49,530 nucleotides of DNA from Escherichia phage grams. The notes under the pieces were generated by a model. The model was not told the DNA's origin and searched no databases. It saw nothing but the letters and a program-made list of their open reading frames with translations. The stretch lies in the sequence record NC_049825.1; one strand, given 5' to 3'. Shown piece by piece: positions 357 to 42,838 of the stretch. The stretch's first letter is position 1. Each line of letters opens with the position of its first letter. A program made the position numbers and the translations under genes.

Positions 357-402
357 ATTATGCCAGGCTTTTACACCTGGCTTTTAACAAAAAGTGCTAT
401 TT
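357..402 (-). promoter_or_regulatory. conserved 22-bp element plus -10 (CATAAT), leftward
   Basis: AAATAGCACTTTTTGTTAAAAG-N18-CATAAT on minus strand; spacer CCAGGTGTAAAAGCCTGG is a hairpin-forming dyad; stop codon of methyltransferase gene lies inside element. Confidence 0.55.
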
Positions 403-1107
403 TGCGTTAGATTCAAAGACTGCGCGAGCAAAACCGCGCGGGGTGAGGGAGCGGATCATCTTTGTGCGCGATGATTTTCCGCCAGTTTTGGCCCAGCCTG
501 GATTATCTTTGTCGTCCTCTTTCGGCAGTATTAAAGCGCGCGGAGGAATAACAAAGCCGTTGCCAGTCCAAAGACATGTTTTCTTAAAGTAGCGATCCCG
601 CGCCGGAATGATATCAGGGAAGTCGGGATGTTTATCATCTTCCGGTAAATATCCGGCGTAATCGCACGGATGGAACGTGTAATCAGGCTTACGCCATAAC
701 GTTGACAGCTTGCCTACAGGATTCTCTATCATGTAAGGAACACCGAAATAATCAGCGATATGCGCGGCTATTTTGCAAGTGTCGGCGGCCTCATTTTGGA
801 AGTTAGGATTTTCCATGCGCTTTTTAGCCCAATGGCGAGATCCGCTGTTTGCTAATTGTGTGCAAGGTGGGAAGGCCATAATGAAATCAGGTTTACCCCA
901 ATTTTCAAGTTTTGCGTTATATTTGAATAGATCATCAATCCACACATTAACGTAAAAAATATTATCATGGATTATGCGCACTGAGTGGTAATCTCCGTGA
1001 TCGGCATCATCGTAATTAAAGCAAATGCATTTATAACCAGCATCAGCCCAATCTTTAACAGCCTTACCAGATCCATCAAACAAAGAGAAAATTAAACCTT
1101 TATACAT
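397..1107 (-). CDS. DNA (cytosine-5)-methyltransferase
   Basis: 236 aa; motif I FSLFDGSGK, catalytic PC motif FPPCTQ, ENV motif MIENPVG in canonical order; RBS GAGGTGA upstream. Confidence 0.75.
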   Translation of the reverse strand: MYKGLIFSLFDGSGKAVKDWADAGYKCICFNYDDADHGDYHSVRIIHDNIFYVNVWIDDLFKYNAKLENWGKPDFIMAFPPCTQLANSGSRHWAKKRMENPNFQNEAADTCKIAAHIADYFGVPYMIENPVGKLSTLWRKPDYTFHPCDYAGYLPEDDKHPDFPDIIPARDRYFKKTCLWTGNGFVIPPRALILPKEDDKDNPGWAKTGGKSSRTKMIRSLTPRGFARAVFESNAK

Positions 1108-1116
1108 TTCATCACC

Positions 1117-1341
1117 TCAAAACGGAAAGCATCGCGCACAGTTAGGATCAAAATTGCAGCCGCAATCATTGACAATCATCGTTGGATCTGCAAATGCAGC
1201 GCCGCATTCATGATCCATATCCATATCACCCAGCGCATCATCAAGCGTCCTGATCTTATATGCAACTTCAAGCGCTGCCTCTTTATTTAATCCTGCATCT
1301 TCAGCCATTTGCAGGCGCTCAAAAAATCCGTCCTGACTCAT
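1117..1341 (-). CDS. hypothetical small Cys-rich protein (74 aa)
   Basis: ORF with C-terminal Cys cluster (HECG...NDCGCNFDPNCARC); start ATG overlaps stop of upstream small ORF (ATGA coupling). Confidence 0.5.
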   Translation of the reverse strand: MSQDGFFERLQMAEDAGLNKEAALEVAYKIRTLDDALGDMDMDHECGAAFADPTMIVNDCGCNFDPNCARCFPF

Positions 1342-1451
1342 TTCATAAGCTCCTTGATAACAACCAGAATAATAGCAAGACCAGCAGTGACAACCAAAAG
1401 ACCAATAAGGCCAATCATCACTCCAAATAAAATATCAAGAAATTTCATCAT
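1338..1451 (-). CDS. small hydrophobic membrane peptide (37 aa)
   Basis: MMKFLDILFGVMIGLIGLLVVTAGLAIILVVIKELMK; RBS AAAGGTGA 6 nt upstream; stop overlaps next start; below size cut-off of the ORF track. Confidence 0.4.
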   Translation of the reverse strand: MMKFLDILFGVMIGLIGLLVVTAGLAIILVVIKELMK

Positions 1452-1498
1452 TATTATCACCTTTATTTAAAGGGAGGCGAAAACCTCCCATTGATTAA

Positions 1499-1726
1499 TC
1501 AGACAGCCTTCCAGCTTTCAATAAACATGCTGTTTTCTTCCAGTAGTTTAATCAATTCTTCGCGTGTATATTTGCGGATTTTACTACCAGGATGCGAGCC
1601 AACAACAAACACACCTTTACCGCTTGTGATTGTTAACTGGTTGATTCCGCAAGATTTATCCATTTTCACGGCGACGCGGTGATGTGCATCAACAGTGTGC
1701 ATGATGTTAGTGATTTTAGCTTTCAT
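1499..1726 (-). CDS. hypothetical protein (75 aa)
   Basis: ORF with RBS GAGGA upstream on minus strand. Confidence 0.5.
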   Translation of the reverse strand: MKAKITNIMHTVDAHHRVAVKMDKSCGINQLTITSGKGVFVVGSHPGSKIRKYTREELIKLLEENSMFIESWKAV

Positions 1727-1900
1727 TATTCAATCCTCATTATATTTAGTGTGGTAACTATGCCAATTTTGCGAAATATTGTTTAACAATTCGTGATATC
1801 AGTTGAAATAGCTATGGCGCTTTGCTCGCTTGTCGTCTCCGCCATAATGATCATTAGAAACTGCAATCATCCAGGCATTATGGAATATTATTAGCTTCAT

Positions 1901-2194
1901 CTAATTAATGCCCACCACGTTAAAACTTACAGCTTTTGTTGCGCCAAATACATACGCCTCAACAGCGCCGCCAAATACGCGAATTTTTCCCTGTCCGTAC
2001 TGCGTATTCATATTGCGCCAAACGGTTCTATTAGAACAGAACGCGTTACCAGTCTTAATGAGATTATCCATCTCTTTTCTTAGATCATGATAATCAAGCC
2101 AGAATCTATAAGCGCGTTGTTTAATTCGCGCGCTTCCGGATGGCTGTTTTCGTGTTCCCAGGTAATCAGAGTAACCATTTTCAAATCCTCGCAT
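1901..2194 (-). CDS. hypothetical protein (97 aa)
   Basis: ORF immediately downstream of a motif promoter; short leader without clear SD, start uncertain. Confidence 0.4.
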   Translation of the reverse strand: MRGFENGYSDYLGTRKQPSGSARIKQRAYRFWLDYHDLRKEMDNLIKTGNAFCSNRTVWRNMNTQYGQGKIRVFGGAVEAYVFGATKAVSFNVVGIN

Positions 2195-2211
2195 TCGTTA
2201 TCGATGTGTGT

Positions 2212-2257
2212 AATATATCGGATCGCGAGGATTGAGTTTTAACAAAAAGTGCTATTT
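2212..2257 (-). promoter_or_regulatory. conserved 22-bp element plus -10 (TATATT), leftward
   Basis: AAATAGCACTTTTTGTTAAAAC-N18-TATATT on minus strand; 9-bp inverted repeat AATCCTCGC/GCGAGGATT flanks the -10. Confidence 0.55.
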
Positions 2258-3088: not shown

Positions 3089-3134
3089 ATTATGCCGAAT
3101 CCAGTCAGGCACGTTTTAACAAAAAGTGCTATTT
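3089..3134 (-). promoter_or_regulatory. conserved 22-bp element plus -10 (CATAAT), leftward
   Basis: Minus-strand reading AAATAGCACTTTTTGTTAAAAC-N18-CATAAT. Confidence 0.55.
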
Positions 3135-3786
3135 GCCTACTGGTCATTATTCCATCTATTCCATTAATCAGGAATAACAGGAATAACTCATTCGCGATCA
3201 CCTGGATTGTGAGACTTTGAGTTTGGTCAATTTTAATCAGTTGATTAACTTTTTGTGTGGAGGGGATAGAGAAACGCGGCCCTCTTGCGTCCTTTCCAGC
3301 AATCCTGGCGCGCGCATCTGTTATTTCTGTTCCCCGCGTTATCTCAATCAAGCCTCCGCACTTTGAGATAACGCAATCAGCGTTCATAAACAAAAAGAAC
3401 AAAATAAAATTTATATATATACACATAAAATCAATAAGTTAGTTATATATGTATTTATATTTGTTATTTACTGTTATGCTTGTTCTGTGGGTATATGGTA
3501 GTGTGGTATTGTTTTTGGTGATATGTATGTGTGGTTGTATACTTTTTAATCAATGGTAATGCGTGGTGATTTTTGTATGTATATATATGGGGTGGCGGCA
3601 ATCCTCCGTCAACCAGGTTAACAAGGTCATTTTTATCTGTTAAACCAATAACTTAACTTGTGCATTTTGTTATCTTTAAACGCGCCACACGCCAAAAGTC
3701 GTTATTAAAACACAAAATATATTGACATGTAGGAAAGGCAAGGCAATAATGCATCCAGTTTAAACGCAACAAAAGGAGTAGATGCC
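3135..3786. repeat. AT-rich non-coding region A (diverged paralogue of 32268..32692)
   Basis: No convincing ORF; shares AATCAATAAGTTAGT, GGTGATTTTT and TTTTGTTATCT blocks with region B. Confidence 0.6.
3722..3750 (+). promoter_or_regulatory. canonical sigma70 promoter (candidate early promoter)
   Basis: TTGACA-N17-AATAAT, about 36 bp upstream of ATG 3787. Confidence 0.6.
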
Positions 3787-4275: not shown

Positions 4276-4319
4276 ATAGCACTTTTTGTCAAAAGTCAAA
4301 AACGATAACCAGGCATAAT
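4274..4319 (+). promoter_or_regulatory. conserved 22-bp element plus -10 (CATAAT)
   Basis: AAATAGCACTTTTTGTCAAAAG-N18-CATAAT; overlaps stop codon TAA of upstream gene. Confidence 0.55.
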
Positions 4320-5265: not shown

Positions 5266-5308
5266 ATAGCACGAATTGTTAAAACTCAAATGTGGGGCCA
5301 GGTATAAT
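5264..5308 (+). promoter_or_regulatory. conserved 22-bp element (GAATTG variant) plus -10 (TATAAT)
   Basis: AAATAGCACGAATTGTTAAAAC-N17-TATAAT; -10 flanked by near-dyad GTGGGGCC/GGCCTCAC. Confidence 0.55.
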
Positions 5309-6614: not shown

Positions 6615-6878
6615 ATGGCTAATAAAGTTGAGTTTTTCAAAGCGGTGGACGTTATTGATGGTGCGCCTAGCTTCTTTGCTATCCATTCTATTGACGGCGA
6701 GGATATTGGGTACAATGTTATCCGTCGAGATGGAATCTCAAAACTTAGCGATCTTGTGAGTGTTATTGTGGCAAACGGAAAATGTGTGTTGCAAGATTCG
6801 CCACGAGAGCCGCGCCGCCGCGACATGGTAGAGCCTGTTCTGCTTTACACTCTGGTAATTGAAGGAGTAAACAAATGA
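6615..6878 (+). CDS. hypothetical protein (87 aa)
   Basis: ORF with RBS GAGGA. Confidence 0.5.
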   Translation: MANKVEFFKAVDVIDGAPSFFAIHSIDGEDIGYNVIRRDGISKLSDLVSVIVANGKCVLQDSPREPRRRDMVEPVLLYTLVIEGVNK

Positions 6879-7060
6879 TTTGGTTACTTGTATTTTTAGT
6901 GGTTTTCTTTTATATTTCAGGCTTATTCATCTTTCGCGCGCTGGTGAAAACATGCGATTGCACGGATAAAGATCAGCCTCTTGTTCTGATGTTCTGGTTT
7001 GTGTGGTTTTGGGTGGCGCTTTACCAGATTGTACGGGATGAAAACGGCTTTAAGTGGTGA
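6875..7060 (+). CDS. small membrane protein (61 aa)
   Basis: Hydrophobic N-terminal and C-terminal segments (IWLLVFLVVFFYISGLFIF, LVLMFWFVWFWVAL); ATGA overlap. Confidence 0.5.
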   Translation: MIWLLVFLVVFFYISGLFIFRALVKTCDCTDKDQPLVLMFWFVWFWVALYQIVRDENGFKW

Positions 7061-34860: not shown

Positions 34861-35313
34861 ATGCATATCATTACTGGTGAGATCCGAAAAGAGCCGCGAG
34901 TAAAGCAAATGCCTAACGGCAGCACACTTTATGTGGTTGAACTTTCAGAGCGATACAAAGATAAAGATGGAAACTGGCAATATACAAACTACAGTTTCTT
35001 TTTTAATGCGAAAACTGACGGACTTAATGGTTGGTATGCTGAGGCGTTCCAGGTTGGCAAGGTTATTTCTGTTTCTTGTGACACTCTGCGCATTGAAACG
35101 CGAGAATACAACGGAAAGATGTATTCAAGTTTAATGCCTGGTGGATTTGCAAATCTTATCTTCAGTCAGCGAGGGGAAAGCCAGCAACAATATCAGCAGC
35201 GAACGCAAGGAGGATGGGGCCAACCACAACAACAGAATCAACCGCAACAACCGCAACAGCCAAGACAAAGCAATCAACCTCCTATGGACTTTGACGACGA
35301 CATTCCTTTCTGA
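34861..35313 (+). CDS. ssb: single-stranded DNA-binding protein
   Basis: 150 aa; Gln/Pro-rich linker and acidic C-terminal tail DFDDDIPF. Confidence 0.8.
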   Translation: MHIITGEIRKEPRVKQMPNGSTLYVVELSERYKDKDGNWQYTNYSFFFNAKTDGLNGWYAEAFQVGKVISVSCDTLRIETREYNGKMYSSLMPGGFANLIFSQRGESQQQYQQRTQGGWGQPQQQNQPQQPQQPRQSNQPPMDFDDDIPF

Positions 35314-42392: not shown

Positions 42393-42798
42393 TAAAGGCG
42401 ATTATCTGGAGTTTTACGAAAGAGATCCGACAGATACGCTAAAAGAGGAATCTCACCAGATCGGGGCGTTTCAATGGTTAACTTATGCTCATCCTGAATT
42501 ACTGGCATGGCATACGAAAAACGAGGGCGACAAGGGGATCGCCACCGCAATGATGGATCAGCAAGCTGGGCTTGTTAAGGGCGTAAGTGATTTTATCATC
42601 CTGATTGGATTAAAAGGTCGTTACCCGTTCGCGGCAATTGAGATGAAGCGCGTCAATAAGTCCGGCAAGGGTAAGGCTTCACCAGTCAGCAAGGACCAAA
42701 AAGCCTTCTTGCGTCGTGTGCGTGAGCTTGGCGGATTCGCTGCCGTAACATACGGATATAAGCAATTCATGATCGCGGTAGAATACATGATGAAATAG
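42379..42798 (+). CDS. VRR-NUC domain nuclease
   Basis: 139 aa; SDFIILIG...AIEMK block fits PD-(D/E)XK of VRR-NUC; overlaps helicase stop. Confidence 0.55.
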   Translation: MAMTDKGDYLEFYERDPTDTLKEESHQIGAFQWLTYAHPELLAWHTKNEGDKGIATAMMDQQAGLVKGVSDFIILIGLKGRYPFAAIEMKRVNKSGKGKASPVSKDQKAFLRRVRELGGFAAVTYGYKQFMIAVEYMMK

Positions 42799-42838
42799 CA
42801 CTTTTTGTTAAAACAGGCGCGAAGGATTGCGCCATAAT
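42793..42838 (+). promoter_or_regulatory. conserved 22-bp element plus -10 (CATAAT)
   Basis: AAATAGCACTTTTTGTTAAAAC-N18-CATAAT; spacer contains GGCGC...GCGCC dyad; stop TAG inside element. Confidence 0.55.

What the first reader, a model, noticed from the sequence alone, without database searches (positions are those of the whole stretch)
1117..1451. Translationally coupled pair: 37-aa membrane peptide and 74-aa Cys-rich protein next to the C5 methyltransferase
A 37-aa hydrophobic peptide (1338..1451, not in the ORF track) has a good RBS and its stop overlaps the start of a 74-aa protein with a C-terminal Cys cluster (ATGAAATGA arrangement). The methyltransferase gene follows 10 nt downstream. 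Small membrane peptide plus partner pairs in phage accessory regions are candidate host-interaction or exclusion modules.
Basis: seen in the sequence. Interest (0 to 1): 0.4.

Follow-up and report, generated by a model that had tools for sequence, protein, structure and literature searches.

The report
Small membrane peptide beside phage early gene
A real but optional 36-37-residue membrane peptide gene lies in a variable slot just upstream of a core, uncharacterised acidic early protein (phage T1 gp6 family) in a T1-like coliphage; the arrangement is ordinary for phage genomes and no function is known for either protein.

Summary
On the minus strand, a 37-aa hydrophobic ORF (1338..1451) has a Shine-Dalgarno site and overlaps the 74-aa ORF (1117..1341) by ATGA. 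A Dcm-like methyltransferase gene follows after 9 nt.

The window is a Hanrivervirus-like phage (Drexlerviridae). Both ORFs are already annotated as hypothetical proteins in relatives.

The peptide gene looks real. Its frame is kept in 118 phage records, and it is the only small transmembrane ORF with an SD and ATG in the window. Four unrelated-looking sequence classes of 36-40-aa single-pass peptides occupy the same slot in other lineages.

It is optional. Most Drexlerviridae, including T1, have the 74-aa gene directly after its upstream neighbour with no peptide gene. ATGA overlaps are common in this genome.

The 74-aa protein belongs to the T1 gp6 family. It has a small helical head, an acidic flexible tail and an optional CxC-x5-CxxC knuckle. 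Its C-terminus is almost always hydrophobic-Pro-Phe/Trp, which resembles the SSB C-terminal tip. That resemblance is an untested lead.

So the "pair as a module" reading is only partly supported. Function remains inferred. Interest is modest.

The parts
1739..1797 (-). Promoter region of the transcription unit. It holds a copy of the repeated 16-nt motif (1797..1782, ATCACGAATTGTTAAA), then -10-like hexamers: CATAGT at 1762..1757, and the scan's TTGGCA-16-TATAAT at 1766..1739.
   Evidence: Motif copies and their fixed architecture. The same motif lies upstream of p75 homologues in other genera. Sigma-70-like match 11/12. Function inferred, not shown.
1499..1726 (-). p75: a 75-aa basic protein (pI 9.7) of the T1 gp5 family (phrog_4344). 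It is the conserved upstream neighbour of p74 throughout Drexlerviridae.
1472..1489 (-). GC-rich hairpin GGGAGG-TTTTCG-CCTCCC, 9 nt after the p75 stop, followed by TTTAAAT. An equivalent hairpin sits at this position in most lineages, with or without the peptide gene.
   Evidence: The terminator scan does not call it. Its role (attenuator or RNA stabiliser) is inferred.
1457..1462 (-). Shine-Dalgarno AGGTGA of p37
1338..1451 (-). p37: a 37-aa (or 36-aa from the second ATG) single-pass membrane peptide. The predicted TM segment is residues 7-31, with small-xxx-small motifs (G10, G14, G17, G24). K3, D6, F9, G17, V20, A23, I28 and K33 are invariant within types A and B.
1350..1355 (-). Shine-Dalgarno AAGGAG of p74, embedded in p37 codons K33-E34
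1117..1341 (-). p74: a 74-aa acidic protein (pI 4.05) of the T1 gp6 family (phrog_9323). Helical head at about residues 6-45, with the invariant core AGLNxE..VA..L..ALGxMDMDxE. Flexible tail with CxC-x5-CxxC (C60, C62, C68, C71). C-terminal tip FPF.
397..1107 (-). A 236-aa Dcm-like C5-type DNA methyltransferase (phrog_757), last gene of the unit. Motifs FDGSG, PPC and ENPVG are visible.
   Evidence: The Pfam PF00145 hit is only weak (E = 0.18), and there is no NCBIfam or PDB sequence hit.
383..398 (-). Next copy of the repeated promoter-associated motif (AGCACTTTTTGTTAAA). It marks the start of the following unit.
34861..35313 (+). The phage's own SSB, ending ...PPMDFDDDIPF. It is the comparator for the p74 tip, and the only other ORF of 50 aa or more in the window that ends hydrophobic-Pro-Phe/Trp.

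Best explanation
p37 is a genuine, fast-evolving, lineage-restricted gene for a 36-37-residue single-pass inner-membrane peptide. It sits in a variable slot between two core early genes of Drexlerviridae: p75 (T1 gp5 family) and p74 (T1 gp6 family). The four genes p75, p37, p74 and the methyltransferase appear to form one early transcription unit. The unit is bracketed by two copies of a repeated promoter-associated motif and has a conserved hairpin after p75.

The ATGA overlap and the SD embedded in the last p37 codons keep p74 translated wherever a peptide gene occupies the slot. This is ordinary gene packing. It is not evidence of a two-protein machine.

Inferred, not shown:
- The peptide inserts post-translationally into the inner membrane. 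Through its glycine-rich TM helix it either self-associates or docks on a host membrane protein. That would make it an accessory function such as exclusion of competing phages or modulation of a host membrane protein.
- p74 acts separately in the cytoplasm. Its helical head carries an acidic flexible tail whose hydrophobic-Pro-Phe/Trp tip docks on a partner, possibly the pockets that bind the SSB C-terminus on DNA replication, recombination or repair proteins.
For: Gene reality:
- The frame is intact in 118 of 120 phage records.
- The SD, ATG and ATGA junction are conserved in types A, B and C.
- p37 is unique in the window as a small TM ORF with an SD and ATG.
- The polar flank residues K3 and D6 are invariant, and an overlapping signal cannot explain them.
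- Replacements in the TM part are nearly all between hydrophobic or small residues.
- There is no Rfam match that would suggest an RNA element instead.

Accessory and variable:
- p74 is in 448 records but p37 in 120.
- In 64 loci the slot is empty in most lineages, including T1. Elsewhere it holds other TM peptides (types C, D, E) or unrelated ORFs of 80-117 codons in Webervirus, L013 and L062.
- dN/dS is about 0.49 for p37 against 0.05 for p74 in the same loci.
- There is no copy in 5,426 complete E. coli genomes.

Unit structure.

Coupling is ordinary: 8 ATGA overlaps in the JakobBernoulli table.

p74 architecture:
- Invariant core and tip.
- In the AF2 model the head has pLDDT 72-80 and the tail 55-63.
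- Only SSB and p74 carry a hydrophobic-Pro-Phe/Trp C-terminus among the 251 ORFs of 50 aa or more in the window.
Against: - There is no expression, localisation or phenotype data for either protein.
- dN/dS of 0.49 is only weak purifying selection, and the shifted frames give similar values.
- Conservation of the C-terminal K-E of p37 can be explained by the p74 SD.
- Small TM ORFs concentrate at this one junction: 19 of 22 in 206 kb of related loci, and two of the other three lie at the same junction. This hints at a tie to p74 or p75 that the "independent proteins" reading does not explain.
- The window's p74 tip (RCFPF) lacks the acidic residues of a true SSB tip.
Confidence: 0.6

Rival explanations
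1. p37 and p74 are a true two-component module. The peptide is a membrane anchor or partner that recruits or regulates the cytoplasmic p74 at the inner membrane. Translational coupling sets their stoichiometry.
For: - Four sequence classes of 36-40-aa TM peptides with no demonstrable similarity to each other (A/B, C, D, E) all sit immediately upstream of p74. A, B and C keep the ATGA overlap; D and E end 1-8 nt before it.
- In 206 kb of related loci, 19 of 22 small TM ORFs with an SD lie at this junction. Two of the other three are in the same slot.
Against: - p74 is present and strongly conserved (dN/dS 0.05) without any peptide gene in most lineages, including T1, Tlsvirus, Henuseptimavirus and Changchunvirus.
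- No p74 sequence feature tracks the presence of the peptide.
- The same slot holds non-membrane ORFs in Webervirus, L013 and L062.
- ATGA overlaps are common in this genome.
Confidence: 0.2
2. The small ORF has no function as a protein. It is a translated spacer (upstream ORF) that tunes p74 translation, or a chance ORF in T-rich sequence.
For: - Purifying selection is weak, and dN/dS is similar in a shifted frame (0.49 against 0.54).
- The conserved C-terminal codons coincide with the p74 SD.
- p74 has its own SD and does not need the ORF in other lineages.
- One locus (L036) has lost the stop codon.
Against: - The frame is open in 118 records.
- Strong TM character is retained in five sequence types that each have their own SD and ATG.
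- N-terminal K3 and D6 are invariant.
- No comparable ORF exists anywhere else in the window.
Confidence: 0.1
3. p74 is a partner or regulator of the adjacent short C5-type methyltransferase, for example a zinc-binding DNA-recognition or control subunit. The whole cluster would then be an anti-restriction unit.
For: - p74 abuts the methyltransferase gene (0-16 nt) in many Tempevirinae and in Webervirus.
- The methyltransferase is unusually short (236 aa) and matches Pfam PF00145 only weakly.
- p74 is strongly acidic (pI 4.05), like DNA-mimic anti-restriction proteins (own knowledge).
- Some records even label p74 as a cytosine methylase.
Against: - T1-type phages and Hafnia phage Pocis76 keep p74 without a neighbouring methyltransferase.
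- In ESCO41 and LF82-19 other genes lie between the two.
- The Cys knuckle and the methyltransferase do not co-vary cleanly.
- Most Drexlerviridae are reported as very sensitive to restriction systems, with no link found to their methyltransferase genes (PMC8594841).
Confidence: 0.1

Closest known systems
Phage T1 gp6 (ST6, YP_003939) and PHROG families 9323 / 9085
   Same: Homologous. The window protein matches phrog_9323 at E = 1.9e-38 over its full length. It shares the invariant core AGLNxE..VA..L..ALGxMDMDxE and a hydrophobic-Pro-aromatic C-terminus. In T1 the gene also lies directly after the gp5 homologue.
   Different: T1 gp6 has no Cys knuckle. Its tail is purely acidic (…EDVDDYIPW). 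It has no peptide gene upstream and no methyltransferase gene downstream. The function of the family is unknown.
C-terminal tip of bacterial SSB (SSB-Ct, DDDIPF)
   Same: A flexible acidic tail ending in hydrophobic-Pro-Phe at the extreme C-terminus. 135 of 142 short family members end [ILVFM]-P-[FW](W). T1-type tails read DDDDYIPW and ESCO41 reads FDDGIPF. The phage's own SSB ends MDFDDDIPF. SSB-Ct is the hub for SSB partner proteins (PMC5872125).
   Different: p74 has no OB fold and is not an SSB. The window's tip is RCFPF, with Phe in place of Ile, no adjacent acidic residues, and a Cys knuckle before it. Some relatives end in Trp or carry an extra Trp. Binding to any SSB partner is untested.
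Small single-pass inner-membrane regulators of bacteria (AcrZ, MgrB, MgtS, and similar; own knowledge)
   Same: Size (30-50 aa), a single TM helix with short polar flanks, small-xxx-small motifs, and fast sequence turnover.
   Different: No sequence similarity to any of them: there are no Pfam, NCBIfam or PHROG hits. No target is known. p37 is encoded by a virulent phage only.
Cor / Llp superinfection-exclusion lipoproteins of T1- and T5-like phages
   Same: Small envelope proteins of the same phage family with an exclusion role (PMC13164509).
   Different: [quoted passage not shown]
Holins and pinholins
   Same: Small hydrophobic phage membrane proteins. The T1 holin has one TM domain.
   Different: The lysis cassette (holin, endolysin, spanin) is elsewhere in these genomes. 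p37 is about half the size of the T1 holin and is in an early unit.

Membership tests
PHROG 9323 / T1 gp6 family (for p74) | Full-length profile match | tested here: met
   phrog_9323 E = 1.9e-38 over residues 1-74; phrog_9085 E = 1.2e-15. T1 ST6 aligns.
PHROG 9323 / T1 gp6 family (for p74) | Position directly downstream of the gp5-family gene in the leftward early region | tested here: met
   Kept in all Drexlerviridae loci examined, with a variable insert between the two genes.
SSB-Ct-bearing proteins / SSB | Extreme C-terminus hydrophobic-Pro-Phe preceded by acidic residues | tested here: inconclusive
   The family tip is conserved in 135 of 142 short members. Acidic residues precede the tip in T1-type and several other members. 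The window protein ends RCFPF, without them.
SSB-Ct-bearing proteins / SSB | OB-fold ssDNA-binding domain | tested here: not met
   The AF2 model shows a small all-helical head. There is no SSB Pfam hit. p74 is not an SSB; at most it mimics the tail.
SSB-Ct-bearing proteins / SSB | Binding of the tip to SSB partner proteins (Exo I, RecQ, PriA, chi and others) | not testable with these tools
   Needs peptide competition assays or complex prediction.
Zinc knuckle / small Cys4 metal site (p74 tail) | Four conserved Cys in CxC-x5-CxxC spacing | tested here: met
   C60, C62, C68 and C71 are invariant in 30 diverse Cys-type members. The knuckle is absent in T1- and ESCO41-type members. Metal binding itself is not testable here.
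Lipoprotein exclusion proteins (Cor / Llp) (for p37) | Signal peptide with a lipobox Cys | tested here: not met
   p37 contains no Cys.
TamB translocation/assembly module (label carried by p37 in some records) | Large protein with a TamB/DUF490 domain | tested here: not met
   p37 is 37 aa with no Pfam family above threshold. The label in records such as SECphi27 and JLBYU19 is an annotation artefact.
Holin (for p37) | Gene in the lysis cassette next to the endolysin and spanin | tested here: not met
   The lysis cassette is annotated elsewhere in JakobBernoulli and T1.
Type I toxin-like small hydrophobic peptides (for p37) | Overlapping antisense RNA control and toxicity on expression | not testable with these tools
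   No Rfam antisense family matches. Toxicity needs an experiment.
C5 cytosine DNA methyltransferase (neighbour gene) | Catalytic motifs I (FxGxG), IV (PC) and VI (ENV) | tested here: inconclusive
   FDGSG, FPPC and ENPVG are visible in the sequence. phrog_757 'DNA methyltransferase' E = 1.4e-85. Pfam PF00145 reaches only E = 0.18 over residues 7-94. There is no NCBIfam or PDB sequence match, and no motif X is evident.

The most novel reading that the evidence does not exclude
The T1 gp6 family, including p74, would be a phage-encoded mimic of the SSB C-terminal tail. It would be a small helical head carrying an acidic, sometimes zinc-stiffened, flexible tail. The tail's hydrophobic-Pro-Phe/Trp tip would occupy the SSB-Ct pockets of host or phage DNA replication, recombination or repair enzymes, to block or redirect them early in infection. 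In several lineages a fast-evolving single-pass membrane peptide encoded immediately upstream would act with it, for example by tethering it or its targets to the inner membrane. That would explain why small TM ORFs in this region occur almost only at this one gene junction.
Probability: 0.15. Interest if true: 0.65.

Novelty: new member of a known kind. Interest (0 to 1): 0.33.

Why it matters
As it stands, this is an ordinary piece of phage gene packing involving two uncharacterised small genes. It mainly matters for annotation. The peptide gene is missed in many records, for example herni. Elsewhere it is mislabelled 'TamB'. Its neighbours are mislabelled 'cytosine methylase' and 'polynucleotide nucleotidyltransferase'.

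Two points could justify a small experiment:
- A membrane peptide of changing sequence recurs at exactly one junction across Drexlerviridae.
- The core early protein next to it has a nearly invariant SSB-like C-terminal tip.

If that tip does engage SSB partner proteins, T1-like phages would have a simple, previously undescribed way of interfering with the host SSB interaction hub.

Tried and rejected
- **Remote homology of p74.** Pfam, NCBIfam, a PDB sequence profile, Foldseek against PDB and an exhaustive profile search found only uncharacterised phage proteins. The first AF2 model was poor (pLDDT 58). A deeper alignment improved only the head.
- **Fusion test.** I asked whether the N-terminal extension of the long Ackermannviridae-type homologues (phrog_4823) is a fused p75, which would imply a p75-p74 interaction. 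hhalign gave probability 0.8%, so this is rejected.
- **Common ancestry of the peptide types.** A and B are homologous (z = 11.8). A-D, C2-E and D-E are borderline (z = 2.2-2.6). All other pairs are indistinguishable from shuffles. One ancient fast-evolving gene and repeated capture cannot be told apart.
- **Co-variation of tips.** I compared the p74 tip with the phage's own SSB tip. T1 SSB ends DDDIPF while T1 gp6 ends DDYIPW, so there is no co-variation signal.
- **Origin in host or prophage.** No match in complete E. coli genomes.
- **RNA element instead of an ORF.** No Rfam hit.
- **Literature.** Searches for the family, for small membrane proteins of Drexlerviridae and for non-SSB phage proteins with an SSB-like tip found nothing relevant.
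- **Profile search with the 37-aa alignment.** The 40-aa version found only close relatives.
- **Gene neighbourhoods of distant p74-core homologues.** These showed only myovirus early/baseplate contexts with no functional clue.

Full report
**What the window is.** The first 3.5 kb match T1-like coliphages of the genus Hanrivervirus (Drexlerviridae, Tempevirinae). The best match is Escherichia phage JakobBernoulli, at 93.8% identity over the whole query, and 239 phage records match. All genes in this stretch run on the minus strand.

**Check of the observation.**
- The small ORF is 1338..1451. It starts with two in-frame ATGs (1451 and 1448), and AGGTGA lies 5 nt before the first.
- It encodes MMKFLDILFGVMIGLIGLLVVTAGLAIILVVIKELMK.
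- Its stop overlaps the ATG of the 74-aa ORF (1117..1341) as ATGA.
- p74 also has its own SD, AAGGAG (1355..1350), formed by p37 codons K33-E34.
- The methyltransferase gene (397..1107) follows after 9 nt, not 10, and its SD overlaps the p74 stop.
- p74 has five Cys, of which four (C60, C62, C68, C71) are conserved.

The peptide ORF is not unknown. It is annotated as a hypothetical protein in JakobBernoulli (bas07_0056) and pSf-1 (gp23). It is missing from other records such as herni, and it is labelled 'TamB translocation/assembly module' in some.

**Is the small ORF more than chance?**
- A six-frame scan of the 49.5-kb window looked for 25-60-aa ORFs with a strong hydrophobic segment, an SD and an ATG. 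It returned only this ORF.
- tblastn finds it in 120 phage records, and 118 cover at least 80% of it without interruption. Protein-level homologues occur only on phage contigs, most about 50 kb.
- In nine Hanrivervirus loci dN/dS is about 0.49, against 0.05 for p74 in the same loci. The shifted frames give similar values, so this test alone is weak.
- Replacements in the hydrophobic part are nearly all between hydrophobic or small residues. K3 and D6 are invariant in types A and B and cannot be explained by any overlapping signal. K33-E34 can be explained by the p74 SD.
- In PGN590 the first ATG is ACG, so the second ATG may be the real start.
- No Rfam family matches the region.

**Comparative anatomy of the locus.** I surveyed 64 loci from GenBank phages and IMG/VR. 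The invariant feature is the gene order p75 (T1 gp5 family, phrog_4344) then p74 (T1 gp6 family). The space between them takes four states:
1. No gap (1-20 nt) in Tunavirus, including T1 itself, Tlsvirus and others.
2. About 50-80 nt holding only a GC-rich hairpin.
3. About 140-175 nt holding the hairpin plus a 36-40-aa single-pass peptide ORF.
4. About 230-340 nt holding unrelated ORFs of 80-117 codons (Webervirus, L013, L062).

**The peptide types.** The peptides come in five types:
- A: Hanrivervirus.
- B: Warwickvirus.
- C: five IMG/VR contigs, MMNSVEKLIKILIAVFIFLDCLLIGGMAFLLFDEIWRSLL.
- D: Hafnia phage Pocis76.
- E: one IMG/VR contig.

A and B are clearly homologous (z = 11.8). A-D, C2-E and D-E reach z = 2.2-2.6. 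The remaining pairs are not distinguishable from composition-matched shuffles. All have an SD, an ATG and a predicted TM segment, and A, B and C keep the ATGA junction.

In 206 kb of these loci, 19 of 22 small TM ORFs with an SD lie at this one junction, and two of the other three are in the same slot. This recurrence is the most interesting result.

It can be read two ways. It could be one old gene that evolves too fast to recognise: where p74 is 88% identical between genera, the peptide is already down to 54%. Or it could be repeated capture at a permissive or functionally linked site.

**Transcription-unit context.** A 16-nt motif, AGCAC(TTT/GAA)TTG(T/C)TAAA, occurs about 20 times in the window. 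About 4 are expected, and none of 100 shuffles reaches 20. It is always co-oriented with the local genes. After about 18-22 nt comes a -10-like hexamer, and about 25-30 nt further an SD and ATG. It is also upstream of p75 homologues in other genera, and 17 copies fit the pattern in T1. Copies at 1797..1782 and 398..383 bracket p75, the hairpin, p37, p74 and the methyltransferase gene as one unit. That these are promoters is inferred.

ATGA overlaps are routine here. Eight neighbouring pairs in the JakobBernoulli table overlap this way. The coupling therefore does not by itself argue for a functional pair.

**What p74 is.**
- It matches phrog_9323 over its full length (E = 1.9e-38).
- It occurs in 448 phage records.
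- The family is small. An exhaustive profile search of 1.84 billion representatives found only 38.
- There is no Pfam, NCBIfam or PDB relative. Foldseek against PDB finds nothing (best E = 5.9). BFVD returns only uncharacterised phage proteins, including Vi1-like myoviruses.
- Alignments show an invariant core, AGLNxE..VA..L..ALGxMDMDxE, then a variable and mostly acidic tail.
- AF2 with 52 sequences gives a small helical head (residues 6-45, pLDDT 72-80) and a low-confidence tail.
- The CxC-x5-CxxC cluster is invariant in Cys-type members but absent in T1- and ESCO41-type members.
- Longer homologues carry the core as a module joined to other domains of unknown function.

**The C-terminal tip.** The extreme C-terminus is the most conserved part of the tail. 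135 of 142 short members end [ILVFM]-P-[FW], sometimes with an extra W. The exceptions are truncated or near misses. T1-type tails read …DDDDYIPW, ESCO41 reads …FDDGIPF, and others read …CKDEIPF.

This resembles the SSB C-terminal tip DDDIPF, which mediates SSB's contacts with its partner proteins (PMC5872125). The phage's own SSB (34861..35313) ends MDFDDDIPF. SSB and p74 are the only two of the window's 251 ORFs of 50 aa or more that end this way.

This is a resemblance, not a test. The window's own tip is RCFPF, without neighbouring acidic residues, and no binding could be examined. I found no paper describing a non-SSB phage protein of this kind in the searchable library.

**Relation to the methyltransferase.** p74 abuts the methyltransferase gene in many Tempevirinae and in Webervirus. 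T1-type phages and Pocis76 have p74 without it. In ESCO41 and LF82-19 other genes intervene. The adjacency is therefore lineage-specific synteny.

The methyltransferase is short (236 aa). Motifs I, IV and VI are visible and the PHROG match is strong, but the Pfam match is only weak. The BASEL study found no simple link between Drexlerviridae methyltransferase genes and restriction sensitivity (PMC8594841).

**Best explanation.** p37 is a real, optional, fast-evolving inner-membrane peptide gene in a variable slot of an early unit. p74 is a core early protein that works without it in most relatives. The overlap is gene packing.

The steps shown are the ORF's conservation, its TM character, its distribution, and the architecture of the unit. 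The steps inferred are membrane insertion, any host target or exclusion role for p37, and tail-tip docking for p74.

**Rivals.**
- A true p37-p74 module is supported by the recurrence at one junction and weakened by the many p74-only lineages.
- A non-functional upstream ORF is weakened by the retained TM character across five types.
- A p74-methyltransferase partnership is weakened by the lineages that have one without the other.

**Novelty and verdict.** Both ORFs are already deposited as hypothetical proteins, and the arrangement is typical of phage early regions. I rate this as a new member of a known kind with modest interest. The one lead worth an experiment is the SSB-like tip of the T1 gp6 family, together with the recurrent membrane peptide upstream of it.

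Noticed in passing
window, about 20 sites, e.g. 383..398(-), 1782..1797(-), 2238..2253(-), 3115..3130(-), 4278..4293(+), 5268..5283(+), 42797..42812(+): The 16-nt motif AGCAC(TTT/GAA)TTG(T/C)TAAA is always co-oriented with the local genes. After about 18-22 nt (often a short hairpin) comes a -10-like (C/T)ATAAT, then an SD and ATG. There are 20 matches against 4.3 expected. T1 has 17 copies fitting the pattern. It looks like a family-wide early promoter class with an unusual upstream element, since the spacing from TTGTTA to the -10 is too long for a normal -35.
   Followed up: partly
window 1472..1489(-) and the equivalent position in L003-L007, L024, L030-L032: A GC-rich hairpin directly after the p75 stop is conserved in position, but not in sequence, across most lineages, with or without the peptide gene. 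It has a weak or absent U-tract, so it may be an attenuator, a processing site or an RNA stabiliser inside the unit.
   Followed up: partly
window 3440..3600(+): A very AT-rich, G+T-rich and C-poor stretch (GC 0.21-0.37, GC skew up to +0.73) lies in the divergent intergenic region between the leftward and rightward early operons. It contains a 36-aa hydrophobic ORF (3449..3559) without an SD, probably an artefact of composition.
   Followed up: no
window 6875..7060(+): A 61-aa ORF with two hydrophobic segments and an SD (GAAGGAG) lies in the rightward early region: MIWLLVFLVVFFYISGLFIFRALVKTCDCTDKDQPLVLMFWFVWFWVALYQIVRDENGFKW. It is another candidate small membrane protein.
   Followed up: no
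GenBank MG0656xx 'Campylobacter phage' records (e.g. A15a, A14a, A123): About 20 records named Campylobacter phage, with host given as C. jejuni, are 88-96% identical to this coliphage-type Hanrivervirus locus. This suggests contamination or a mis-assigned host in those deposits.
   Followed up: no
related records: Misleading product names propagate in this locus. The peptide is called 'TamB translocation/assembly module'. p74 homologues are called 'putative cytosine DNA methylase' or 'Dcm' (U136B_078, STSR3_34, Pseudomonas phage Motto). p75 homologues are called 'polyribonucleotide nucleotidyltransferase'.
   Followed up: partly
L003 (pSf-1, 3194..3442 in flipped locus coordinates), L038 (Shigella phage 2019SD1), L036: There are apparent frameshifts or disruptions. 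In pSf-1 the p74 C-terminus is shifted and the ORF reads 16 nt into the methyltransferase gene. In 2019SD1 p74 is interrupted. In L036 the type C peptide has lost its stop codon. These could be sequencing errors or real decay.
   Followed up: no
window 397..1107(-): The Dcm-like methyltransferase is unusually short (236 aa). Motifs I, IV and VI and an RxLTPR-like motif IX are visible, but no clear motif X, and there is very little room for a target-recognition domain. Pfam PF00145 matches only at E = 0.18.
   Followed up: partly
window about 1800..2200 compared with L001 (JakobBernoulli): The leftward early region is mosaic. JakobBernoulli carries about 700 bp more here, including a putative homing endonuclease gene that the window lacks.
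   Followed up: no
L069 6001..6654 (protein P0147): A 217-aa myovirus-context homologue carries the p74 core fused to a CxxC…CxxC zinc-ribbon part (phrog_3786). It has a precomputed Pfam hit PF26833 (Phage_Mu_gp6). A link to a Mu early protein family was not followed.
   Followed up: no
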